The notes: generated from the letters alone by a model not told the origin. Shown: positions 1,977 to 24,984, counted from the stretch's first letter. The stretch is DNA of 45,099 nt from Dhillonvirus LF50P3 (OZ035753.1); one strand, 5' to 3'. Translations and numbers: made by a program.

Positions 1977-3497
1977 ATGACCGTTAACGTTGACAACCAG
2001 CACCCCCTCTATGCGCGCATCGCGCCAGAGTGGAAAATGATCCGGGATTGTGTAGCAGGGGAGCGCGCTGTGAAGGCGTGCGGCCCTTTGTACCTGCCAC
2101 ATCCTGCCAGCGGCGACAATACTGACCCGAAATCACGGGCGCGGTATAAGGCGTATAAGCAACGCGCTGTATTCCTGAACGCCACCGCCCGCACACTTAA
2201 CGCGCTGTTAGGCGTTGCCTTTGCTAAACCGGTAAGTCTGGACCTTTCCGGGGCGATGGCTGACCTGATTGACGACGTAGACGGCAGCGGCATGCCGCTG
2301 CCGCAACTCCTGCGCGGTGCTATGTCTGAAGTTCTGCAATCAGGCCGTGCGGGCTTTATGGTCGACTACGACCGCCAGGCGCATTTTGATGAACTGGGTA
2401 ATGTTGTGCCGCAGACAGCCGCCGAGATGGCGTCACACCGCCCGCTTATCCGCCTGTACACGGCAGAACAGATCATCAACTGGCGGCAGACCCACGGCGT
2501 CGATACACTAATTGTGCTGAAGGAAACGGACGAAATCAGCACCGAAGACCCGGACGACTTCGCAAACCACGAAGTAACAATCTGGACCGAGCTTCGCATG
2601 ATTAACGGTGCGGCACACGCCCGCCGCTGGTACTACAACGCGGACACGTCCGAGGTGCAAATGGATTTGCCGCGTGGATTCACCCGCACCGACCTGGTGC
2701 CGCTGGTGGATGCCGCCGGTAATGCGCTGACACAACTTCCGTTTTGCTGGTGTGGTGCGGTGGACAACAACGCAACGCCAGACGCCGCTCCGCTGGCGGA
2801 TATCGCATCCATCAACATTAAGCACTACAACGCCGAAGCTGACGTCGCCGAGATTGCGCACATCGTGGGCCAGCCTACCCTGGTGGCAACGGGCTTGACT
2901 CAATCATGGGCAGACAAGAACCTGAAGGGCGGCATTGCCCTCGGTGCGACTAAGGGCGTTATCCTGGGCCAGAACATGGACGCTAAACTGATTCAGGCGG
3001 AGGAGCGCAACTTGTCGGTTGCACTGTGTGAGCGTCGCGAATTGCAAATGGCTAAACTTGGCGCGGCCCTGGTCGAGAAGGGGACCGCACCTAAGACGGC
3101 AACCGAGGCGGCCTATGATGCGCAGACTGATAACAGTATCCTGTCGCTTATTGCCGGTAACGTTGAGAAGGCTTTCAACCGTGCGCTGCAAATCGTGCAG
3201 CTATTCACAGGCGACACCGCCGACCAGCGCGTAACGCTGAATAAGTTTTACACCGAGATCACGGTGGACGCACAGCTTATGACCGCGATGATGGCAGGTG
3301 TGCAGACTGGTACTGTCCGTCTGGCGGACTTTATCAAGTGGATGATGGCCCAGGGCGTCATTGATGACTCGCAAACCGTCGAGCAGGTGGAAGACGAACT
3401 GCGAAATCAGAATCCATTGCCTCAAATGTCCCCGGATGCGGTAGAATCTACCGAAGAAGACCCGGACAAGGTAGCGGACAATGGCGAAGACAATTAA
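1977..3497 (+). CDS. portal protein
   Basis: 506-aa ORF immediately after the large terminase, acidic C-terminal tail, RBS AAGGAAACGAAC before the ATG; size and position typical of portal proteins. Confidence 0.8.
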   Translation: MTVNVDNQHPLYARIAPEWKMIRDCVAGERAVKACGPLYLPHPASGDNTDPKSRARYKAYKQRAVFLNATARTLNALLGVAFAKPVSLDLSGAMADLIDDVDGSGMPLPQLLRGAMSEVLQSGRAGFMVDYDRQAHFDELGNVVPQTAAEMASHRPLIRLYTAEQIINWRQTHGVDTLIVLKETDEISTEDPDDFANHEVTIWTELRMINGAAHARRWYYNADTSEVQMDLPRGFTRTDLVPLVDAAGNALTQLPFCWCGAVDNNATPDAAPLADIASINIKHYNAEADVAEIAHIVGQPTLVATGLTQSWADKNLKGGIALGATKGVILGQNMDAKLIQAEERNLSVALCERRELQMAKLGAALVEKGTAPKTATEAAYDAQTDNSILSLIAGNVEKAFNRALQIVQLFTGDTADQRVTLNKFYTEITVDAQLMTAMMAGVQTGTVRLADFIKWMMAQGVIDDSQTVEQVEDELRNQNPLPQMSPDAVESTEEDPDKVADNGEDN

Positions 3498-4584
3498 TCA
3501 ACATTTGGCGGATCGAATGATTCGCCGTCACATCTTCACCCAGCGCCTGAGCAATGACCAGGCGCGGAGGGTGCTGGCTATGTGGGAGAAGTTCAGACCC
3601 TCGTTACTTGGTAAGCTGACCGAGTTGCTTGATGGCAAAAAATCCATGAATAACAGGGCACTTTCCACGCTGTTAACGCAACTCGACAAGACCGTTAAAG
3701 CAGAATTGCGCACCGAGTTTAAGGCGTTGGCTGAAAGCCTTCAGGAGTTTGCCGACACCGAGGCTGATTATCTTGCCGATACATTAACGGCAGCGATCCA
3801 GCCCGCGGTCGCCGTACCGGCTGTCGAGGTGGTGGGTGTTGTGACCGGCGCGCAGATCGCAGCGACGGCAATGAAAAACCCGTTCCAGGGAAACACCATG
3901 ATGCAGTGGCCTGATTCACTTTCCGAGTGGACCCGGACGCAGATCGGCAATCAGGTGCGCGCGGGATTCATCCAGGGCAAGCCGACTATGGAAATTATTG
4001 CGGACGTGAGGCGCGCGCTAGGCGGTCGTAGTGCGCAAGCAATCTCAAGCGTTGTTAAGTCCGCGGTCAACCACTATGCGGCGACCGCCCGCGAATTAAT
4101 GGTAAAAGCTAATGACGATATTCTCGAAGGACGCCAATGGTTGGCTACATTGGACACGCATACTTCTCCCATGTGCCAGCTACGCGATCGCCTGTTTTAT
4201 CCAGTTGATGTTACTCCCGACACAAAAGGGAAGCGCGGCGGGAAAATGGTGGCGGGATCACAATATGGCGCTGGTCCGGGCAAGCTACATTATTGCTGCC
4301 GGTCTACGGAGACGTGGAAAGTCAAAGGCATGGAAGATTGGCCCAGTGGTAAGCGTCCGGCACTGAAGGCTGACGCGGGTCGATTGCTTAGTGAGCAGGT
4401 CGACGCGCAGACTGATTTCTTCTCCTGGGTGCAGCGCCAGCCTCGCCATATTCTGGAGGAATTATATGGGGTGCAGCGCGCCGATCAGATTATGCGCGGC
4501 GTGAAAGTGCCGAAGATGTTCACCGATACTGGCGAACTAATGACTATTGCACAGCTTAAAAACCGGGGGTTATGGCGTGATTAA
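3481..4584 (+). CDS. minor head protein, Mu F-like / SPP1 gp7-like head morphogenesis protein
   Basis: 367-aa ORF overlapping the portal stop; contains the characteristic segment WLATLDTHTSPMCQLRDRLFYP of the phage Mu F head-morphogenesis family. Confidence 0.7.
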   Translation: MAKTINQHLADRMIRRHIFTQRLSNDQARRVLAMWEKFRPSLLGKLTELLDGKKSMNNRALSTLLTQLDKTVKAELRTEFKALAESLQEFADTEADYLADTLTAAIQPAVAVPAVEVVGVVTGAQIAATAMKNPFQGNTMMQWPDSLSEWTRTQIGNQVRAGFIQGKPTMEIIADVRRALGGRSAQAISSVVKSAVNHYAATARELMVKANDDILEGRQWLATLDTHTSPMCQLRDRLFYPVDVTPDTKGKRGGKMVAGSQYGAGPGKLHYCCRSTETWKVKGMEDWPSGKRPALKADAGRLLSEQVDAQTDFFSWVQRQPRHILEELYGVQRADQIMRGVKVPKMFTDTGELMTIAQLKNRGLWRD

Positions 4585-16608: not shown

Positions 16609-17216
16609 CAACGTTTAAATTGTACGGCGTCTTAGGGCGTCGATTCGGTAAAGTGCATAAGCTGGACTGCTTCACACCGGGCGAAGGCATCACCGGCCTG
16701 TGTGTGAAGTTGCCCGGGTTACAAGACTTTTTAATGTCGGCCCACCTGGACAACATGATGTTCAAGGTGCGCAAAGGCGACCACACAATGACCGGTTATG
16801 ATGAGCTTGGCGAGTTCCACGGCAACCGCGTCGTTACCATCGCGCCTGTTATGACTGGCGCAAAAAGAGGATTGGGCCAATTGCTGGCGGGTGTCGCGAT
16901 CGTAGTGGCGTCGTTCTATACGGGCGGACTTGCTACTGCCGCTTTCGGGGCTTCTGCGGCAACCGCTGCCGCTATCGGTACGGCTACGTTTTCGTTCGGC
17001 ATGTCGATGGCGCTGGGTGGCGTTATGCAATTGTTGTCGCCTCAACCGAAAGGATTGCAGACACGGCAGGACGTGGATAACAAGGCTTCGTATGCGTTCG
17101 GGGGGCCGGTAAACACGACCGCGCAAGGGACCGCACTTGGTGTATTATGGGGCGAGCGTGAGATCGGCGGCGCTATTATTTCAGCCGGAATCGTAACCGA
17201 GGATTTGAACGAATGA
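16599..17216 (+). CDS. tail assembly protein I-like
   Basis: 205-aa ORF overlapping K; N-terminus MAMTTFKLYGVLGRRFG and a Gly/Ala-rich hydrophobic C-terminal part typical of lambda gpI-like proteins. Confidence 0.6.
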   Translation: MAMTTFKLYGVLGRRFGKVHKLDCFTPGEGITGLCVKLPGLQDFLMSAHLDNMMFKVRKGDHTMTGYDELGEFHGNRVVTIAPVMTGAKRGLGQLLAGVAIVVASFYTGGLATAAFGASAATAAAIGTATFSFGMSMALGGVMQLLSPQPKGLQTRQDVDNKASYAFGGPVNTTAQGTALGVLWGEREIGGAIISAGIVTEDLNE

Positions 17217-20200
17217 CGATTATTTACGACGTCACGGGCCATAAAGGCGGCGGCGGCAAACAGCACACCCCACAGGAGACGCCCGATAGCCTGCATTCGC
17301 TGGCTAAAATCCGCATCTTGCTTGCGCTGGGAGAAGGTGAGTTCGAAGGTATTCCAGACCCTAACGAATTACGGCGGCGCGTATATCTGGACGGAACACC
17401 GATCCAGAACGCAGACCTGTCAGAAAACTTCCCCGGAGCGCGTGTGGAGTTCCGCCCAGGCACACAGCACCAGGATGTGATCCACGGATTTTCAGCGGTG
17501 GAAAGTGAGCAATCTGTCGGCGTAAAACTGGAAAACGGCACGCCGTGGGTGCGCCAGATTAACGATACCAGTCTGGACGCCGTTCGCATTCGCATCGGCA
17601 TTCCGGCCCTGTACACTAACGAAGATAATGGCGACCTGGTGGGCGGGCGCATCGACTATAAGATCGTTGTGTATACGGATAACGCCGACCCGCGTGAGTT
17701 CAGATTCGCCGCCGTTGGTAAAACAATGTCGCTATATGAGCGCGACCACCGCATCGAATTACCGCCGAACGTGAATACCGGCTGGCGAGTGGAGGTGCAC
17801 CGCATAACGGCAGACTCCACATCGGCGAAAGTGGTTAATGATATCCGGGTGCAATCCATCACTGAGATTATCGACGCCCGCCTGCGTTACCCGCTAACCG
17901 CGCTGTTGTTTGTGGAGTTCGACGCCAAAGCGTTCCAGAACATCCCGCGCGTGTCCATCAAGTGCAAAGGCCGCAAAGTTCTAATACCTAACAACTACGA
18001 CCCGATTAATCATACCTATTCCGGGGACTGGGACGGCACGTTTAAACGCGCATGGACGGATAACCCCGCGTGGCACTGGTACGATATTTGTATTACTGAG
18101 CGCTTCGGCCTCGGTCGGCGTATCAAACCGCAAATGTTAAACCGGTACGCGCTCTACCAGATTGCGCAGCGCTGCGATCAGTTGGTCAGCGACGGCAACG
18201 GTGGTCGAGAAATCCGCTTTAAGAATGATATGTACATTCAGTCACAGACGGATGCCTGGACCGTGCTTAAGGATTTAGCCGCTATCTTTGCCGGTATGAC
18301 CTGGTGGGGAAATCAGATGTTGAATATCGTCAGTGACCAGCCGGTCGCAGCGGTATCGCACACCATCACCAACGCCTCGGTCATTGATGGCCGATTCGAC
18401 TACGCGTCCGGTAGCCAGAAAACTCGGTATTCCACATTCGCGGTAGCATACGGCAACCCGAAGAACCACTATGAAGATGCCATTGCTACGGGGCAGCGTG
18501 TCGAACTGGTACGCCGCCATAAGATTAACCGTCTGGATATAACGGCGATCGGCTGTACGCGTGAGTCAGAAGCGCAACGACGTGGGCACTGGGCGCTAAT
18601 CTCCAACCAGCTTGACCAGCAAGTTAGCTTTAAGGTCGGCATGGAGGGACTTTTCTTTATTCCGGGTAGCGTAGTCGCGATCGCCGATACAAACATTTCT
18701 GGTGGCTTCGAGACACGCGGCGGTCGCCTGTTGTCGGACCCTGGCACGCGGACGGTGCTGAACACAGACAGCGAAATCACGTTCCGCCCGGGTGATAAAT
18801 TCCTGGTACGCACCGATAGCGGTAATGTGGAGACTCGCGAGATCGCCAGCGTCAACGGCAACAAGGTTACGCTAAAAACTGCACTGGACGCCGACCCTAT
18901 TCCAGACCAGCCGTTTTGCGTCGATGGCAACGATATCCAGTTGCAGAAGTTCCGCATCACCGACCTGGAATATGACGACTCTACCAGCACTTTTTCAGTG
19001 CGCGGGATCGAGTACAACGATAGCAAATATGATGCCGTTGATAATGGCGCTCGCCTTGATCCGGGCATCTTTACTCAAGTGCCCGACGGTGTAATGAAGG
19101 GGCCAGAGTCCGTAACCATCACCCCGTCGCAGATTTCATCGCAAGGCCAGCTAATCACCAACGTGGATATTGTATTCCCTCCGGTGAAGGACGCCGTGGT
19201 GTATGAAATCCAGTGGCGACGTACCAGCTTGCAGAATATGGAAATCCAGTGGGGTAACGACTGGGTGAACATCCCCCGCACGGCATCGAACGGCGCGCAC
19301 ATCCCTAACGTGTTCTCCGGTAACTACCAGGCACGCGTCCGCGCAATCGGTATGGGTGAGATTTCATCCCCGTGGGTGTCGTCTGCCATCACGCCGATAG
19401 AAGGTCGTCTCGGCGGGCTTAACGCGCCTATCATCACCAACGCGATTTCGGGCCTCCACCAAATTTTGTGGAAGTGGAACCACAACAACGCCGCGACGGA
19501 TATTTCGTACACCGAGCTTGAAGTGCGCAAGACCGGTGAAACGGAGTGGAAATTTCTTACCAACGTCCCATATCCGGGGGCGGAGTATGCGCAAACGTCA
19601 CTGGAGTTCGGGATCTATCAGCAGTTGCGCGCCCGTGTAGCGGATAAAATCGGCAACCTGTCGGACTGGTCGGCCCCGTTTGAAGGGCAGGTGAGTGACA
19701 AAGTTGACGAATACATGAAGGGGCTTGATGACGAGTTCTTGACTTCCGAGGACGGTAAACGCTTCCAGGAAGCGATCGACACCATGCCGCAAGGTATCTA
19801 TGAGTCTATGCTTACGGACGCCCAGCAGCTATTCAATGCCCGCGCCGAGTATAAAGGGATTTATGCGGAAATCACGGTGGCGTATAACGTGGCGGCGGAC
19901 GCGCATAAAGCCGTAGCGCAACTGGAAACGTTGATCGGCACGCGCCTTGATGACGCCGAAGCATCAATCCACACGTTGCAGACTGCGCAAAGCACACATG
20001 AACAAGCGTTCGCCCAGTACCAGCAAACTGTTGCCGCTAAGTTTTCGGAACAGGAAGCCGCCATCCAGCAGGTACAAACGGCAACGGCGGACGTGGCTGG
20101 CGCACTGGCTGAGTACAAGACCCAGGTAGCGGCACAGTTCGGTCAGCAGTCCGCCGCGATCGAGCAGAAGATGACGTCTTCGTTTAACCATGCTGGCGGC

Positions 20201-20659
20201 AGCGCCACGTACAGTCTTAAGGCTGGCGTGACGTATAACGGGACTTACTATGACGCCGGTATGCAGCTTTCAGTTGTGACGTCTGGCAACGCAGTTAAAT
20301 CGCGTATTGCGTTCAAAGCCGACCAGTTCTATATCATGCACCCATCTAATGGGTCGCTTTCGTCCGCGTTTATCGTTGACGGCGGGCAGGTGTATATTGA
20401 CACGGCACGCATCAAGGATGCGTCAATCAACTTTGCGCAGATCACGGACACGCTGCAATCAAATAACTTCGCTTCAGGGTCACGCGGCTGGCGTATCCAG
20501 AAAGGCGGCGCTGCGGAGTTTAACGAAGTAACGGTCCGCGGCAACCTGTACGCCACATCGGGTAACTTCGGGTTTTCTGGCGGGACCGTGACGATCGACA
20601 AGACAGGCGTAAACGTGCCGTTACCTGGCGGGGGAAGGGTGAAAGTCGGGACGTGGTAA
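17213..20659 (+). CDS. host specificity / central tail fiber protein J-like
   Basis: 1148-aa ORF overlapping I, the largest tail gene after the tape measure; completes a lambda-like M-L-K-I-J order. Confidence 0.85.
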   Translation: MTIIYDVTGHKGGGGKQHTPQETPDSLHSLAKIRILLALGEGEFEGIPDPNELRRRVYLDGTPIQNADLSENFPGARVEFRPGTQHQDVIHGFSAVESEQSVGVKLENGTPWVRQINDTSLDAVRIRIGIPALYTNEDNGDLVGGRIDYKIVVYTDNADPREFRFAAVGKTMSLYERDHRIELPPNVNTGWRVEVHRITADSTSAKVVNDIRVQSITEIIDARLRYPLTALLFVEFDAKAFQNIPRVSIKCKGRKVLIPNNYDPINHTYSGDWDGTFKRAWTDNPAWHWYDICITERFGLGRRIKPQMLNRYALYQIAQRCDQLVSDGNGGREIRFKNDMYIQSQTDAWTVLKDLAAIFAGMTWWGNQMLNIVSDQPVAAVSHTITNASVIDGRFDYASGSQKTRYSTFAVAYGNPKNHYEDAIATGQRVELVRRHKINRLDITAIGCTRESEAQRRGHWALISNQLDQQVSFKVGMEGLFFIPGSVVAIADTNISGGFETRGGRLLSDPGTRTVLNTDSEITFRPGDKFLVRTDSGNVETREIASVNGNKVTLKTALDADPIPDQPFCVDGNDIQLQKFRITDLEYDDSTSTFSVRGIEYNDSKYDAVDNGARLDPGIFTQVPDGVMKGPESVTITPSQISSQGQLITNVDIVFPPVKDAVVYEIQWRRTSLQNMEIQWGNDWVNIPRTASNGAHIPNVFSGNYQARVRAIGMGEISSPWVSSAITPIEGRLGGLNAPIITNAISGLHQILWKWNHNNAATDISYTELEVRKTGETEWKFLTNVPYPGAEYAQTSLEFGIYQQLRARVADKIGNLSDWSAPFEGQVSDKVDEYMKGLDDEFLTSEDGKRFQEAIDTMPQGIYESMLTDAQQLFNARAEYKGIYAEITVAYNVAADAHKAVAQLETLIGTRLDDAEASIHTLQTAQSTHEQAFAQYQQTVAAKFSEQEAAIQQVQTATADVAGALAEYKTQVAAQFGQQSAAIEQKMTSSFNHAGGSATYSLKAGVTYNGTYYDAGMQLSVVTSGNAVKSRIAFKADQFYIMHPSNGSLSSAFIVDGGQVYIDTARIKDASINFAQITDTLQSNNFASGSRGWRIQKGGAAEFNEVTVRGNLYATSGNFGFSGGTVTIDKTGVNVPLPGGGRVKVGTW

Positions 20660-20666
20660 ATGCGAA

Positions 20667-20688
20667 GGGGCCAGATGGCCCCATTTTC
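20667..20688. terminator. hairpin between convergent J gene and minus-strand cassette
   Basis: GGGGCC-agat-GGCCCC stem-loop followed by a short T tract; between the J stop (20659) and the minus-strand stop at 20687. Confidence 0.5.
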
Positions 20689-21652
20689 AATACATATTCG
20701 GGATGACGAGTAGCGGGGTTGGTACTGCAATATTTTTACTTGGCATCTGGAATTGCTGCCGTGAGTAGTTGCCGATGACGCGGTTTTTAGCGACGCGCAC
20801 ATTATTACCCGCCATGCGTATGCCGTTCATGCGGACGTGGTTATAGCCACCGTTGTTCTGAATCAGTGCGCCGGTGTATGAAAGCTGGATCAGGCTGTTT
20901 CCAATATTCTGGTCGCCCGTTCCGATGTTAATAGTGCGGTCATATACGAACGGCTTGTTCACCGTCGAGAACGTAACCTGATTCTGGTTATTCGTCATGG
21001 TGATTCCGGCCCCCGGCGTTGGTGGTGTGTTGTTGAATATCACCAAATCCATGTCCACCGAAGCCGCCACATCGTCGATGCCTCCATAGGACGCGTTGCG
21101 GACGATAATACTGCCGCCGTCGAAGCCTACTGATACGTTGCCATCGTCCCATCGGGCGAACGGGACACCGCTAACGGGCAATGCCATACTGCCGTTGACG
21201 CGCACGCGCTGTGCGTATCGGCAGGTCATTAGCTTAGACACGTTGGATATGGCGGTGAAGTCCGTCGAGTTAGCCACCAGTAAACCTGCGTTGCGCGACC
21301 CAACCGGCAGCACTTCCATTATGACGCCCGCCCATTGTGGTAAACCTGAGTACGCGCCATACACATCCTCCCCGCGCAGGGTTATTCCGCTATTACCGTT
21401 GCGAGTAACCGACGTAACGTAAAACGGATCAGGTATTACCAGTGTCTGGTCGAACACTTCAATCACCTCTACCGGGCGAGTGAGCGCTACGATTACTTGC
21501 GACCCCTCCGTAAGCGGGGTGTTAATGGTTAGCGTCTTGTTGGCCTGTGCCCGCTGGTTAAAGCTGGTGCAGTATGACGGCGCGCGGAGTCCCGCGGTGA
21601 TTTCCATTACCGGCCTGCCGTCGTTATAGTCGATAAGTATTCCAGCGCCCAT
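20687..21652 (-). CDS. hypothetical Asn/Gly/Val/Thr-rich protein co-transcribed with the Cor-like lipoprotein
   Basis: 321-aa ORF whose ATG lies 2 nt after the lipoprotein stop (TAATAATG), implying coupled translation; no signal peptide; composition resembles fiber or beta-helix proteins (GGYNHVRMNGIRMAGNNVRVAKNRVIGNY). Confidence 0.55.
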   Translation of the reverse strand: MGAGILIDYNDGRPVMEITAGLRAPSYCTSFNQRAQANKTLTINTPLTEGSQVIVALTRPVEVIEVFDQTLVIPDPFYVTSVTRNGNSGITLRGEDVYGAYSGLPQWAGVIMEVLPVGSRNAGLLVANSTDFTAISNVSKLMTCRYAQRVRVNGSMALPVSGVPFARWDDGNVSVGFDGGSIIVRNASYGGIDDVAASVDMDLVIFNNTPPTPGAGITMTNNQNQVTFSTVNKPFVYDRTINIGTGDQNIGNSLIQLSYTGALIQNNGGYNHVRMNGIRMAGNNVRVAKNRVIGNYSRQQFQMPSKNIAVPTPLLVIPNMY

Positions 21653-21654
21653 TA

Positions 21655-21876
21655 TTACCACTCCCGTGATTTAACTGATACGGTGCCTGAGAAATTGCCG
21701 TCGCTATCGGATGACAGCCCAGTGAATCGCATGTCCACATCTCCTGCCGGGACTTTTTGCCCGTCAACGTAGCGCAACATGCAGCTACCGTAAGCAACCG
21801 TAACGCAATCGCCATTGTTGCGTTCTACGGCGCAACCGGACAAAAGAACCGCACAAATCATAATTAAAGTTTTCAT
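21655..21876 (-). CDS. small lipoprotein, Cor-like superinfection-exclusion candidate
   Basis: 73-aa ORF starting MKTLIMICAVLLSGC (lipobox LSGC) with RBS AGGGGA; located opposite-strand beside tail-fiber genes as are Cor/Llp-type lipoproteins of FhuA-dependent phages. The listed 94-aa version was trimmed. Confidence 0.6.
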   Translation of the reverse strand: MKTLIMICAVLLSGCAVERNNGDCVTVAYGSCMLRYVDGQKVPAGDVDMRFTGLSSDSDGNFSGTVSVKSREW

Positions 21877-21955
21877 GGTATCATCCCCTATATTTGGTTG
21901 AGTTTTAGTATTACACCGCTCAACCAGGATTGCAACCAATTACGAGGATTTAGCT

Positions 21956-24382
21956 ATGGCAGCGGGTACGCTATCCGTAACGAACAACAGCAAGGCGGTA
22001 GTAGGGGTTGGCACAACGTTTACCGCGTTTAAAGCAGGCGACTTTTTAACGCTGGTGGTAGGACAAGTCCCCTACACCGTAGCGATCGCGTCCATTGAAA
22101 GCGCAACCGCGCTCACGCTGGTGTTACCGTTCGACGGCCCAACGGCAACCGGCCTTGCGTGGGACGGCGTTAAACGCGATACCATGTCACTGGCAACGAT
22201 GGGCGTTACCGTACAGGCACAGAAAGCGTTGCGATTGATGATCGCAGATGAAAACAACTGGCGCGCTATCTTCGGCGAAGAAGAAGAAATCTCGGTCACG
22301 CTACCGAACGGTCAAGTGGTGCAGGGTATGTCGTGGGGCTACCTGTCAAAACTGCTTAAAGACGTAGATCCTGTTGAATTGCAGGCTATCGCGGACCAGA
22401 CCATCACGGCTAAAAACCAGGCGCAAGGATTCCGTAACGAGGCGGAAGGATTCAAGAACACCGCGAATACCGCGAAAGAGGCCGCAGTAGCTGCGAAGAC
22501 CGCGGCTGAAACGGCGCAGGGTAAAGCCGAGACAGCTAAAACGGCAGCGGAGTCCGCGAAGACTGCCGCCGAAACAGCTAAATCGCAGGCCGTAACCGCT
22601 AAAGACCAGGCAAAAGGATTCCGCGACGAGGCAGAAGGCTTTGCGAACAGCGCGGACGCGTCAAAGAAAGTGCCGTATGCTGGCGTGGATATTGGAACGC
22701 CTGCTGGCATTAGGGATATGCTCAAGACGCTACGTGATACGGTCAAAGGTGGCTTTTGGCGGGTAACGAACTCGACGCAGTTCCCGGCTGGCGAACTGAC
22801 ACCTGGTCGCTATGGTCCCGGTGTGTGTGGCGGGGCGGGCGATACTTTCTTTGCAATCAACGTTGACTATCAAACCTCTCGCGTCAAAGTTTACGCTGGA
22901 AACAATGCCGCGATTAACGGCTCTTCGGGGAATGTGAGCGCCGTCGAACTAGCAAGGCTGGGTGCTAACGGGGACGTGGCGTTAGCGGACGGCGGGACCG
23001 GTGCATCGAACGACCAGGACGCGAGAAAAAACCTTCAGGCAATGCACGAGCGACAGGCATCGTTGGGTACTGAAGATCTTAACGAATTGAAAGGGGATAA
23101 GGCTGGATTTTACTTTCAGTCCATGTCGGCGAACGCCACCCCTGAGCGTAACTATCCAGTCGCCACGGCTGGTTGCTTGCTGGTGCAGCGTACTGGTGCT
23201 AACGTCGCGACAAGCTGCGTGCAGACTTTCACATCATACTTAGACGGGCGTCGGTGGATGCGCTGGATTAGCAACGGGGCAACTGGCACCTGGTCGCAGT
23301 GGTACGAATTATATAACTCGGGGTCGTCGCCGACTTTTTCCGGGGTGGTCGCGGGCTCTTCGGTGGAGGCTAGAGGGGACGGAAAGCGCGCAGTTCTTCG
23401 CACATGGCCTAACGATGTATCTGTTTCCAACTCGGCATCTAATAAATTCTTGCAATTAAGGGACAATGGTGAGCTTGCATATGACAACAAGCTGATCGCG
23501 TATAATGGCCTTGTAGCAAGCGGCTCATTTTATATGCAAGTTCCGAGCATTAAGGTTAATACCGCTAATGGTGGCTTCCGTATCGACGGAACAACGGCAA
23601 CAAACGACCAACCACTGCACGTAACAGGCTACAACTCCGCAGGTACGCGTCTTTGGTTTTTAGGGAAGGACACCGGGACGAACGCGCTATTCCTGAACGA
23701 TGTTACATCGTCTAAGGTTGAGCTGATCACAGACGGCGTTGTGCTTGGTACAAAGAATTTTGCGGGCAAGGCATACGTCCAGGCCGCAAGTTTAGAGATC
23801 GACCGACCGAGCGGCAAGTATTTCAAAATGCTGAACGACGGCAACTCGTCGCACCCGGCAACCTTCAAATTATGGGGTAACGGGTCCGATAGGGCGTCGG
23901 TTTTTGAGTGTGGTTTTGATAACGGCCCTGGGTGGGTGTTTTACGCGCAATATAACAGCAACGGCACGCGCCAGATGAACGTTAACGGCACGGTAAACTG
24001 CACGACGGTAAACCAGTCGTCTGACCGCGAGTTGAAGGATAACATCAAGCCGATCGAGAACGCCCGCGCGGGCCTTGCTAAGATGGGTGGCTATACCTAC
24101 ACCCTGAAGAAAGACGGTATGCCGTACGCCGGGGTGATTGCACAGGAAGTAATGGACGTTGTGCCGGAAGCGGTGAGCACTTTTGAGGACTACGAATACC
24201 TGGCAGGACCAACGAAAGACGGCGAGGAACTGGTAGGGCGTCAGCGCTTCTTCCAGGTTGATTATGGTGCTATTGCTGCATACGCGGTGCAAGTGTGTAA
24301 AGAACAGGAAGAGGAACTGGTGTCATTGCGTAGCGAACTGGAGGAATTGAAAGCTGCCGTAGCGGCACTGACTAAAGCATAA
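21956..24382 (+). CDS. tail fiber with C-terminal intramolecular chaperone (peptidase S74-like) domain
   Basis: 808-aa ORF; C-terminus NQSSDRELKDNIKPIENARAGLAKMGGYTYTLK matches the self-cleaving chaperone domain found at the C-termini of endosialidase-type and L-shaped fibers; internal AKTAAETAK-type helical repeats flanked by a duplicated QAQGFRNEAEGF / QAKGFRDEAEGF motif. Confidence 0.8.
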   Translation: MAAGTLSVTNNSKAVVGVGTTFTAFKAGDFLTLVVGQVPYTVAIASIESATALTLVLPFDGPTATGLAWDGVKRDTMSLATMGVTVQAQKALRLMIADENNWRAIFGEEEEISVTLPNGQVVQGMSWGYLSKLLKDVDPVELQAIADQTITAKNQAQGFRNEAEGFKNTANTAKEAAVAAKTAAETAQGKAETAKTAAESAKTAAETAKSQAVTAKDQAKGFRDEAEGFANSADASKKVPYAGVDIGTPAGIRDMLKTLRDTVKGGFWRVTNSTQFPAGELTPGRYGPGVCGGAGDTFFAINVDYQTSRVKVYAGNNAAINGSSGNVSAVELARLGANGDVALADGGTGASNDQDARKNLQAMHERQASLGTEDLNELKGDKAGFYFQSMSANATPERNYPVATAGCLLVQRTGANVATSCVQTFTSYLDGRRWMRWISNGATGTWSQWYELYNSGSSPTFSGVVAGSSVEARGDGKRAVLRTWPNDVSVSNSASNKFLQLRDNGELAYDNKLIAYNGLVASGSFYMQVPSIKVNTANGGFRIDGTTATNDQPLHVTGYNSAGTRLWFLGKDTGTNALFLNDVTSSKVELITDGVVLGTKNFAGKAYVQAASLEIDRPSGKYFKMLNDGNSSHPATFKLWGNGSDRASVFECGFDNGPGWVFYAQYNSNGTRQMNVNGTVNCTTVNQSSDRELKDNIKPIENARAGLAKMGGYTYTLKKDGMPYAGVIAQEVMDVVPEAVSTFEDYEYLAGPTKDGEELVGRQRFFQVDYGAIAAYAVQVCKEQEEELVSLRSELEELKAAVAALTKA

Positions 24383-24388
24383 CGAGAA

Positions 24389-24410
24389 GGGGCCATCCGG
24401 CCCCTTTTTT
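24389..24410. terminator. bidirectional intrinsic terminator
   Basis: GGGGCC-atcc-GGCCCC stem-loop followed by TTTTTT; between the tail fiber stop (24382) and the minus-strand stop at 24409. Confidence 0.7.
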
Positions 24411-24984
24411 AGTTTGAGTTTTCCCAGTCCATTTTGCGCCGCACCAGCGGGCTTTCGTAATATTCCTTGCCTTCCACTTCCACCAGAGGCCAGTCGTTCA
24501 CAATCACGTATGGCTCTGCGATATCCTCGATCACGCCGTGCGCGCTTTGCGGCCCTAACGATACACCCACCAGGATAACACCGGCAACGCGACGTGACAG
24601 ATACTCGCGAGCGCAACGCGCCTCTACCAGCCCGCGACGGATGCCGCTGGTGGCTTTAACCTCGTAGGTCCAGACGGCATCGATCACATGCTCGCGGAAG
24701 TCGGGGCCGGACTTTACCTTGCGCTTGCCGACCATGATGATATCGCCGCGGTCGATGGTATTGGAGCTAAACAAGCCGGTACGCATTAGTAAGCCTTGCG
24801 GTATGCAACTACGCCCGCCCGCCTGCCCCTCAAGGTACATACCGGCAAACATCTCGCCCAAAACACCGACAAGACGGCTTTGCTTGCACGCGTCAGACTT
24901 TAAGCGCCACTGGTCAAACTCGATGCTTGCTATCATCGCCGCCAGGTGGAATTGTTTACCGGATATTTCATATTCGCCGTACAT
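24409..24984 (-). CDS. hypothetical protein, possible PD-(D/E)xK-type nuclease
   Basis: 191-aa ORF with RBS GAGGA; contains a D...EVK arrangement (VIDAVWTYEVKATSG) reminiscent of restriction-endonuclease-fold nucleases; weak motif-level call only. Confidence 0.4.
   Translation of the reverse strand: MYGEYEISGKQFHLAAMIASIEFDQWRLKSDACKQSRLVGVLGEMFAGMYLEGQAGGRSCIPQGLLMRTGLFSSNTIDRGDIIMVGKRKVKSGPDFREHVIDAVWTYEVKATSGIRRGLVEARCAREYLSRRVAGVILVGVSLGPQSAHGVIEDIAEPYVIVNDWPLVEVEGKEYYESPLVRRKMDWENSN

What the first reader, a model, noticed from the sequence alone, without database searches (positions are those of the whole stretch)
20687..21876. Opposite-strand cassette inside the tail module: Cor-like lipoprotein coupled to a 321-aa Asn/Gly-rich protein
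Seen directly: between the J gene and the 808-aa tail fiber, two genes run on the minus strand. The first is a 73-aa lipoprotein (MKTLIMICAVLLSGC) and the second a 321-aa protein whose ATG lies 2 nt after the lipoprotein stop; the pair is flanked by a hairpin terminator and a promoter-like region. Established knowledge: small lipoproteins such as Cor and T5 Llp are encoded beside receptor-binding protein genes and block the phage's own outer-membrane receptor (FhuA in those cases). Inference: the 321-aa protein may be a receptor-binding or receptor-interacting partner, or a second exclusion factor; its sequence matched nothing I recognise.
Basis: partly seen in the sequence, partly recalled or inferred. 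Interest (0 to 1): 0.65.

Follow-up and report, generated by a model that had tools for sequence, protein, structure and literature searches.

The report
Known LptD receptor-binding and exclusion cassette
The two opposite-strand genes are the already characterised host-recognition cassette of Dhillonvirus-type E. coli phages: a receptor-binding protein that docks on the essential outer-membrane LPS exporter LptD, preceded by a small lipoprotein that blocks that same receptor, so the finding is real but ordinary.

Summary
On the minus strand, between the J-like tail-tip gene and the lateral tail fibre gene, lie a 73-aa lipoprotein gene (21876..21655) and a 321-aa gene (21652..20687). The second ATG starts 2 nt after the first gene's stop.

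Neither protein is unknown.
- **321-aa protein:** it is 97% identical (310/321) to bas18_0025 of phage Oekolampad. That protein's cryo-EM structure bound to the LptDE lipopolysaccharide translocon is published (PDB 9RPT/9RPW/9RQI; Dunbar et al., PNAS 2025).
- **Lipoprotein:** it is 72/73 identical to bas18_0026 (SE_Oeko). It is homologous to Rtp45, whose structure on the periplasmic side of LptDE (PDB 9RPS) shows how it prevents RBP binding.
- **Locus type:** it was linked genetically to LptD specificity by Maffei et al. (2021).

Three details are off:
- the receptor is LptD, not FhuA;
- the lipoprotein is a functional analogue of Cor and Llp, not a homologue;
- the "second exclusion factor" alternative is wrong.

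Exclusion activity of the Dhillonvirus lipoprotein itself has not been shown experimentally. Verdict: already known, low interest.

The parts
21655..21876 (-). Superinfection-exclusion lipoprotein gene (73 aa; Rtp45 / SE_Oeko type, PF24052). Signal peptide with lipobox LSGC, lipidated Cys15, Ala at +2 (outer-membrane sorting expected), mature protein about 59 aa. Cys24 and Cys32 align with the Rtp45 disulfide pair Cys30/Cys38.
   Evidence: sequence. (PF24052, 76.6 bits against a cut-off of 27). (72/73 identical to bas18_0026). (PDB 9RPS chain D, Rtp45, E 1.5e-8, both Cys aligned). (paper: the disulfide and the alignment).
20687..21652 (-). Receptor-binding protein gene (321 aa; DUF6453 / PF20051; orthologue of RBP_Oeko bas18_0025 and homologue of Rtp44). 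It binds the extracellular face of LptD. The conserved N-terminus (residues 1-34) and C-terminal PNMY motif are candidate tail-docking parts, which is an inference.
   Evidence: PDB 9RPT_C/9RPW/9RQI, E 3.6e-206, full length. (310/321 identical). (PF20051, 403 bits). (phrog_1265, 3.9e-122). (conservation pattern). (structure and interface).
20667..20682 (.). GC-rich hairpin (6-bp stem, 4-nt loop) between the convergent stops of J and the RBP gene. Probably a shared bidirectional terminator.
   Evidence: terminator-like on +. (stem predicted on the - strand RNA, weak z-score of -1.55). (a hairpin is kept at this position in Oekolampad and, with a different sequence, in TheodorHerzl).
21907..21935 (-). 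Weak sigma-70-like element TTGCAA-N17-AATACT with TG at -15/-14, in the 79-bp divergent gap upstream of the lipoprotein gene. Candidate promoter of the two-gene operon (inferred).
   Evidence: Read. It falls below the threshold of the scan. The gap is about 94% conserved across cassette alleles.
17213..20659 (+). J-like tail tip protein (1148 aa), 98% identical to Oekolampad bas18_0024. Presumed carrier on whose distal end the RBP is displayed non-covalently (context; attachment not shown here).
   Evidence: phrog_31; FNIII-A_GpJ, Phage_Tail_Tip. (1123/1148 identical). (model in Maffei et al.).
21956..24382 (+). Lateral tail fibre (808 aa) with a C-terminal Peptidase_S74 intramolecular chaperone domain. 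It is a separate, glycan-directed first-contact fibre, a neighbour of the cassette and not part of it.
   Evidence: (two-fibre model for Dhillonvirus).

Best explanation
The window is a Dhillonvirus-type E. coli siphophage genome. The minus-strand pair is its terminal-receptor recognition module of the LptD type.

**321-aa protein.** It is the dedicated receptor-binding protein. It is thought to be carried non-covalently at the distal end of the J-like tail tip. [quoted passage not shown] That commits the phage to irreversible adsorption and DNA ejection.

**73-aa protein.** It is made as a prolipoprotein, lipidated at Cys15 and sorted to the inner leaflet of the outer membrane. By homology with Rtp45, it binds LptD from the periplasmic side near strands 5-8, pushes a hairpin up through the lumen and displaces extracellular loop 4. 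LptD can then no longer accept the RBP. This protects the infected cell from superinfection and protects progeny from being wasted on envelope debris.

**Expression.** The two genes form one translationally coupled unit (2-nt gap, each with its own Shine-Dalgarno motif). It has its own weak promoter and shares a hairpin terminator with J.

**Shown by others for 97-99% identical proteins:** LptD dependence of the phage, and RBP-LptDE binding with its structure.

**Shown for a 35%-identical homologue:** lipoprotein-LptDE binding and loop displacement.

**Inferred here:** that the same holds for this phage, the docking on J, and the promoter and terminator.
For: - **Phage identity:** and one search place the window in Dhillonvirus (Gluttony_ev152 94-96% nt, Oekolampad 93.7% nt).
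- **RBP:** searches show 310/321 identity to PDB 9RPT chain C, which is Oekolampad bas18_0025, over the full length.
- **Lipoprotein:** one search shows 72/73 identity to bas18_0026. One search gives Rtp45 (PDB 9RPS_D) as the only significant PDB match, with both disulfide cysteines aligned.
- **Family membership:** one search puts both proteins far above the Pfam gathering scores (PF20051 403 bits, PF24052 76.6 bits).
- **J protein:** one search shows 98% identity to Oekolampad J, including the C-terminus.
- **Published mechanism (Dunbar et al. 2025, PMC12685063):** the RBP_Oeko-LptDE interface is about 1,700 A2 with 20 H-bonds. LptD point mutants abolish both binding and infection. Rtp45 sits at the periplasmic face and displaces EL4 by up to 20 A.
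- **Published genetics (Maffei et al. 2021, PMC8594841):** spontaneous lptD mutants resist Oekolampad and six other phages that share this RBP module. The module sits downstream of gpJ.
- **Selection:** one search gives dN/dS of 0.03-0.07.
- **Synteny:** searches show the same gene order and orientation in Oekolampad, TheodorHerzl and Gluttony.
Against: - Nothing was tested on this phage itself.
- Eleven residues differ from RBP_Oeko: V15R, A37S, E49A, I54V, E95D, V97A, S139A, Q148K, A215T, G246S, S305G. I could not place them relative to the LptD interface, because the contact list exists only as a figure. Gln299, the one RBP contact residue named in the text, is conserved.
- Exclusion by the Dhillonvirus lipoprotein has never been demonstrated. 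The authors could not express SE_Oeko, and it is only 35% identical to Rtp45, with a longer C-terminal tail.
- DUF6453 RBP homologues in a Seuratvirus and in Salmonella, Klebsiella and Yersinia phages have no detectable lipoprotein homologue within 1.5 kb. The pairing is therefore not obligatory.
- The promoter is sub-threshold.
Confidence: 0.93

Rival explanations
1. The 321-aa protein is a membrane protein or 'moron', or a second exclusion factor acting in the infected cell, rather than a virion receptor-binding protein.
For: PHROG labels phrog_1265 'membrane protein; moron, auxiliary metabolic gene and host takeover'. Several RefSeq records repeat 'membrane protein'. The gene lies on the strand opposite to the structural operon and is co-transcribed with an exclusion gene.
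Against: [quoted passage not shown] LptD mutations that block infection also block its binding. No signal peptide or lipobox was seen in the sequence. In Salmonella, Klebsiella and Yersinia relatives the homologue sits directly after J on the same strand. The PHROG label looks like a propagated misannotation.
Confidence: 0.02
2. The cassette is of the LptD type by descent, but the 11 substitutions have retargeted this RBP, for example to a different LptD allele or host, or to another porin.
For: RBP loci of small siphophages evolve and exchange quickly. Substitutions exist. Near-identical cassettes are deposited under non-E. coli host names such as Sodalis SO-1 and Acinetobacter NJ01.
Against: Identity is 97% and most changes are conservative. 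dN/dS is 0.07, so there is no sign of diversifying selection. Gln299 is conserved. Far more divergent homologues (33% identity: TheodorHerzl and Rtp44/AugustePiccard) still use LptD.
Confidence: 0.03
3. The lipoprotein is not primarily a block to superinfection. Because it is translationally coupled to a virion protein, it is made late and mainly masks LptD in lysing cells and debris so that progeny are not inactivated. Alternatively, it has another role connected with the RBP.
For: There is a 2-nt gap and a shared transcript with the RBP gene. Dunbar et al. themselves list both roles for SE factors. SE_Oeko activity is untested. Some RBP homologues lack a neighbouring lipoprotein.
Against: This is a difference in timing and emphasis, not in molecular mechanism. 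The Rtp45-LptDE structure supports receptor masking in either case. Expression timing was not measured.
Confidence: 0.25

Closest known systems
Oekolampad (Bas18) bas18_0025 / bas18_0026: RBP_Oeko and SE_Oeko (PDB 9RPT, 9RPW, 9RQI)
   Same: Same genus, same gene order and orientation. RBP 97% identical, lipoprotein 99%, J 98%. Same 2-nt coupling. Hairpin with the same stem at the same position.
   Different: Eleven RBP substitutions and one lipoprotein substitution. The lateral tail fibre next door is a different allele (808 aa with an S74 chaperone domain, against 606 aa).
Phage Rtp rtp44 / rtp45 (Drexlerviridae; Rtp45-LptDE structure PDB 9RPS)
   Same: Same two families (DUF6453 RBP; PF24052 lipoprotein), same receptor LptD, adjacent genes downstream of J. 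The disulfide cysteines are conserved.
   Different: About 33% (RBP) and 35% (lipoprotein) identity, according to the paper. Different phage family. Rtp45 has a shorter C-terminal tail.
Phage T5 pb5 (Oad) and Llp acting on FhuA
   Same: Same logic. A monomeric RBP at the tip of a siphophage tail binds an outer-membrane beta-barrel. A small periplasmic-side lipoprotein, encoded next to the RBP gene, abolishes RBP binding.
   Different: No sequence relationship was detected. The PDB searches returned only RBP_Oeko and Rtp45. The receptor is a TonB-dependent transporter. Llp works by long-range allostery, whereas Rtp45 physically displaces a loop through the barrel lumen.
Cor lipoproteins of T1, phi80, N15 and HK022 (phrog_1119)
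   Different: The only match is E 5e-4 over residues 1-30, i.e. the signal peptide and lipobox. The mature part is unrelated. The Cor receptor is FhuA.

Membership tests
LptD-targeting RBP of small siphophages (DUF6453 / PF20051; RBP_Oeko, Rtp44) | Full-length sequence match to the family model above the curated cut-off | tested here: met
   PF20051: 403.4 bits against a cut-off of 25, residues 4-297 of 321. phrog_1265: 3.9e-122, residues 1-321.
LptD-targeting RBP of small siphophages (DUF6453 / PF20051; RBP_Oeko, Rtp44) | Close identity to a member with an experimentally solved complex with LptDE | tested here: met
   310/321 identical to PDB 9RPT chain C.
LptD-targeting RBP of small siphophages (DUF6453 / PF20051; RBP_Oeko, Rtp44) | Encoded immediately downstream of the J-like tail tip gene (the 'bona fide RBP locus') | tested here: met
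   The J stop is at 20659 and the RBP stop at 20687, convergent. The layout is the same in Oekolampad, TheodorHerzl and Gluttony.
LptD-targeting RBP of small siphophages (DUF6453 / PF20051; RBP_Oeko, Rtp44) | Infection depends on LptD, and the protein binds LptDE | not testable with these tools
   Shown for Oekolampad by Maffei et al. and Dunbar et al.. Inferred here from 97% identity.
LptD-targeting RBP of small siphophages (DUF6453 / PF20051; RBP_Oeko, Rtp44) | Virion component attached to the distal end of J | not testable with these tools
   Proposed in the literature. The tail-proximal part is disordered in the cryo-EM map. The N-terminal 34 residues and the C-terminal PNMY motif are conserved across alleles, but this is only suggestive.
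Rtp45-type superinfection-exclusion lipoprotein (PF24052 Phage_lipoprotein) | Sequence match to the family model above the curated cut-off | tested here: met
   PF24052: 76.6 bits against a cut-off of 27, residues 3-73. phrog_4281: 1.6e-33. Rtp45 PDB chain: E 1.5e-8.
Rtp45-type superinfection-exclusion lipoprotein (PF24052 Phage_lipoprotein) | Lipoprotein signal peptide with lipobox cysteine | tested here: met
   MKTLIMICAVLLSG-C15, with Ala at +2. The cysteine aligns with the lipid-anchor Cys of Rtp45.
Rtp45-type superinfection-exclusion lipoprotein (PF24052 Phage_lipoprotein) | Conserved intramolecular disulfide pair (Rtp45 Cys30-Cys38) | tested here: met
   Cys24 and Cys32 align with it. 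They are invariant in the four-sequence alignment. The paper's alignment marks them.
Rtp45-type superinfection-exclusion lipoprotein (PF24052 Phage_lipoprotein) | Expression confers exclusion, and the protein binds LptDE from the periplasm | not testable with these tools
   Binding is shown structurally for Rtp45 only. Expression of SE_Oeko failed. The original Rtp45 resistance experiment (Wietzorrek et al. 2006) could not be read here.
Cor superinfection-exclusion lipoprotein (phrog_1119) | Homology extending over the mature protein | tested here: not met
   The match covers only residues 1-30 of 73 (profile positions 1-32 of 78), E 5.4e-4. No Cor-type Pfam or NCBIfam hit was found even at E up to 10 and E up to 1 respectively.
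T5 pb5 / Llp pair | Detectable sequence similarity to pb5 or Llp | tested here: not met
   PDB sequence searches returned only RBP_Oeko (E up to 0.01) and Rtp45 (E up to 1; the other rows are noise at E about 0.8). Structural similarity was not tested, because the single-sequence model was unusable.

The most novel reading that the evidence does not exclude
The SE_Oeko-type lipoprotein has never been shown to exclude anything, and it is translationally coupled to a virion protein on a transcript of its own. It might therefore do more than Rtp45-style masking. It could be a late-expressed factor whose main job is to keep newly made RBP and virions from being captured by LptD in the producing cell and its debris. 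Its longer C-terminal tail could engage LptDE or LptM differently from Rtp45. DUF6453 RBPs that lack any neighbouring lipoprotein (Seuratvirus, Salmonella, Klebsiella and Yersinia phages) would then use another solution.
Probability: 0.1. Interest if true: 0.35.

Novelty: already known. Interest (0 to 1): 0.12.

Why it matters
For this window it matters mainly as annotation. The phage can be predicted to use LptD, an essential and highly constrained outer-membrane protein, as its terminal receptor, and to carry a cognate receptor-masking lipoprotein.

The annotation is worth correcting, because public records and PHROGs still call the RBP 'membrane protein', 'moron' or 'hypothetical protein'.

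The biology itself is interesting: a phage that binds an open, probably active state of the LPS translocon, and exclusion by physical loop displacement through the barrel. It is already published for 97-99% identical proteins, so nothing new is added here.

Tried and rejected
1. **Structure prediction.** A single-sequence AlphaFold2 model of the 321-aa protein had mean pLDDT 29 and pTM 0.18. It was discarded and no fold search was run on it.
2. **Mapping the substitutions.** I looked for a residue-level list of RBP-LptD contacts to map the 11 substitutions.
3. **Original Rtp45 experiment.** Wietzorrek et al. 2006 (the Rtp45 resistance experiment) is not held in the library.
4. **Promoter scan.** No site with at least 9 of 12 matches was found in the gap upstream of the lipoprotein gene. 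Only a manual 8-of-12 site with an extended -10 element is there.
5. **Lipoprotein in distant loci.** I looked with a lipobox regex (it proved too strict and missed TheodorHerzl's TVGC box) and then with an HMM of three lipoproteins against six-frame translations. Nothing was found within about 1.5 kb in VogelGryff, SPN3UB, NJS1, P840 or KarlSchell.
6. **Cor and Llp membership.** Considered and rejected.
7. **RNA genes.** tRNA and Rfam scans of the whole window were empty.

Full report
**Observation.** The described features are in the sequence at the stated coordinates.
- The J-like tail tip gene (17213-20659, +, 1148 aa) and an 808-aa tail fibre gene (21956-24382, +) flank two minus-strand ORFs.
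- The first runs from ATG 21876 to TAA 21657-21655. It encodes 73 aa beginning MKTLIMICAVLLSGC, which is a classical lipoprotein signal peptide with lipobox L-S-G-C and Ala at +2.
- After two bases (TA), the second ORF starts at ATG 21652 and ends at 20687 (321 aa).
- Each start has a Shine-Dalgarno motif: AGGGGA 7 nt upstream and GGGAG 8 nt upstream.
- The composition is mildly Gly/Asn-rich: G 10.0%, N 9.7%, and also V 10.6%.
- Both ORFs are genuine genes under strong purifying selection. dN/dS is 0.06-0.07 for the long gene and 0-0.04 for the short one, against two relatives that differ by 3.5-7% (long gene) and 2-4% (short gene) at the nucleotide level.

**Flanking signals.**
- A 6-bp all-GC hairpin (20667-20682) lies between the convergent stops of J and the 321-aa gene. 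Its T-run is good on the + strand and poor on the - strand, and its folding z-score is unremarkable.
- A hairpin is kept at the same position in Oekolampad, with a different loop and the same stem. TheodorHerzl has an unrelated sequence that also forms a hairpin there. That argues for function.
- The 'promoter-like region' is weaker. The scan found nothing at its threshold in the 79-bp divergent gap.
- By eye there is TTGCAA-N17-AATACT with an extended -10 TG (21935-21907). The gap is about 94% conserved even in a phage whose cassette proteins are only 33-45% identical.

**Identity.** The window is essentially a complete Dhillonvirus-type E. coli siphophage genome.
- The best match is Gluttony_ev152, at 94-96% nt. 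Oekolampad (BASEL Bas18) matches at 93.7% over the cassette.
- The 321-aa protein is a full-length member of Pfam DUF6453 (PF20051, 403 bits) and phrog_1265. The lipoprotein belongs to PF24052 'Phage_lipoprotein' and phrog_4281.
- A search of PDB sequences gave a single hit for the long protein, chain C of 9RPT/9RPW/9RQI, at E 3.6e-206 over residues 1-321.
- That chain is Oekolampad bas18_0025. The window's protein is 310/321 identical to it.
- The lipoprotein is 72/73 identical to bas18_0026. Its only significant PDB match is Rtp45, chain D of 9RPS, at E 1.5e-8. The lipid-anchor cysteine and both disulfide cysteines align.
- J is 98% identical to Oekolampad J along its whole length.

**What is known about these proteins.**
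- Maffei et al. 2021 (PMC8594841) showed that small siphophages of Drexlerviridae, Dhillonvirus, Nonagvirus and Seuratvirus carry exchangeable 'bona fide RBP loci' directly downstream of gpJ, and that the alleles match terminal-receptor specificity.
- For seven phages including Oekolampad and TheodorHerzl, spontaneous resistant mutants mapped to lptD.
- Dunbar et al. 2025 (PMC12685063) purified RBP_Oeko (bas18_0025) and solved it bound to Shigella flexneri LptDE.
  - It inserts deeply into the extracellular side of an open, laterally gated state of the barrel.
  - The interface is about 1,700 A2, with 20 H-bonds and two salt bridges, mostly to loops EL3-5 and EL11.
  - LptD point mutants selected for phage resistance abolish binding in vitro.
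- The same paper calls bas18_0026 the superinfection-exclusion lipoprotein SE_Oeko, but it could not be expressed.
  - The authors instead solved the 35%-identical Rtp45 on LptDE.
  - Rtp45 sits on the periplasmic side near strands 5-8, between LptE and LptM.
  - It sends a hairpin up the lumen and displaces EL4 by up to 20 A, which is incompatible with RBP binding.
- Black et al. 2025 (PMC13035648) modelled LptD-type RBPs from several families. They describe a beta-sandwich scaffold with loops at a pointed tip, so it is neither a beta-helix nor a fibre.
- Humolli et al. 2025 (PMC11990801) describe the two-step model for Dhillonvirus. The lateral fibre deals with O-antigen, and the central fibre with this RBP module binds the porin-like terminal receptor.

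**Mechanism for this window.**
- By near-identity, the 321-aa protein is the virion's terminal receptor-binding protein for LptD.
- By homology, the 73-aa protein is an outer-membrane-anchored periplasmic lipoprotein that masks LptD in the infected cell.
- The tight coupling (2-nt gap) implies co-expression of the RBP and its 'antidote'. Whether that is early or late is not known.
- The steps shown experimentally belong to Oekolampad and Rtp. Transfer to this phage is an inference, though a strong one at 97-99% identity.
- The eleven RBP substitutions (V15R, A37S, E49A, I54V, E95D, V97A, S139A, Q148K, A215T, G246S, S305G, window residue first) could not be placed relative to the interface, because the contact map is only a figure.
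- Gln299, the one contact residue named in the text, is conserved.

**Comparison and membership.**
- The pair works like T5 pb5/Llp and like Cor, but is a member of neither family.
- The Cor PHROG match is confined to residues 1-30, the signal peptide. No Cor-type family appears in Pfam or NCBIfam even at permissive thresholds.
- No pb5 or Llp chain appears in the PDB searches.
- Mechanistically, Llp acts allosterically on a TonB-dependent transporter, whereas Rtp45 acts by steric displacement within the LptD lumen.

**Additional observations from relatives.**
- The RBP family occurs in 431 phage records.
- In Dhillonvirus the order lipoprotein-then-RBP, opposite to J, is constant.
- In Seuratvirus VogelGryff the RBP is alone on the opposite strand. 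In Salmonella SPN3UB, Klebsiella NJS1 and Yersinia P840 it follows J on the same strand. In all four, no lipoprotein homologue was detected within 1.5 kb.
- An alignment of seven RBPs shows a conserved N-terminus (M..G[IL].I..[NK]DG....[IM].IT[AS]G.R), a conserved central block, and in six of the seven a [ND]MY C-terminus (PNMY in four). The segments in between are variable.
- The conserved ends are candidates for the tail-docking surface. The paper notes that the tail-proximal part is disordered in the map.

**Verdict.** The system is already known in structural detail. Interest is low, other than for correcting annotation, since 'membrane protein' and 'moron' labels persist in PHROGs and RefSeq. 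One modest open point remains: exclusion by the Dhillonvirus-type lipoprotein has not yet been demonstrated directly.

Noticed in passing
L002 (Citrobacter phage HCF1, MN545971.1) 3272-3602: This looks like a decayed LptD-type cassette. It holds a frameshifted lipoprotein homologue, followed by only the first 34 codons of the RBP (82% identical) and then a stop, abutting the end of the J-like gene. The record is flagged UNVERIFIED_ASMBLY, so it may be a sequencing artefact rather than a true remnant.
   Followed up: partly
L008 (KarlSchell_Bas89, PQ850613.1) 2159-3190; also DE5, SGF2, O18-011, TH06/TH34: About 77-kb podoviruses encode a 343-aa 'membrane protein' with 23-26% identity to residues ~111-311 of the RBP. 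They appear to be the Kuravirus / Gordonclarkvirinae type, though that placement is my reading and the record's taxonomy line gives no genus. In KarlSchell_Bas89 the gene lies between tail fibre genes and transglycosylase/ejection-protein genes. It may be a related receptor-binding domain in a different virion architecture.
   Followed up: no
L004 (VogelGryff), L005 (SPN3UB), L006 (NJS1), L007 (P840): DUF6453 RBP homologues in Seuratvirus, Salmonella, Klebsiella and Yersinia phages have no PF24052-like lipoprotein within about 1.5 kb. In three of them the gene lies on the same strand as J. In NJS1 the RBP ORF is not annotated at all.
   Followed up: partly
window 21877-21955 and the 5' end of 21956-24382: The divergent intergenic region and the start of the lateral fibre gene are about 94% conserved between phages whose cassette proteins are only 33-45% identical. 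This marks one recombination boundary of the exchangeable RBP module. The conserved J 3' end is probably the other boundary.
   Followed up: partly
window 21956-24382: The lateral tail fibre allele (808 aa, coiled-coil-like N-terminal half, C-terminal Peptidase_S74 chaperone domain) differs from Oekolampad's 606-aa fibre. It is closest to vB_EcoS_SD276 (97.7%) and welsh (91%), and its distal ~570 aa are shared with ~51-kb phages. This indicates separate mosaic exchange of the primary-receptor fibre.
   Followed up: partly
window 24409-24984 (-): A 191-aa ORF convergent with the tail fibre gene is a full-length member of phrog_10558 (E 1e-117, unknown function). It has no Pfam match and is conserved in Oekolampad as bas18_0028.
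   Followed up: no
database records: Near-identical cassettes (86-93% nt; the SO-1 RBP is 96.6% identical at protein level) are deposited as Sodalis phage SO-1, Acinetobacter phage NJ01 and Campylobacter-labelled phages. Given an RBP specific for enterobacterial LptD, these host labels look doubtful. Separately, PHROG's 'membrane protein / moron' label for phrog_1265 is propagated into RefSeq annotations of the RBP.
   Followed up: no
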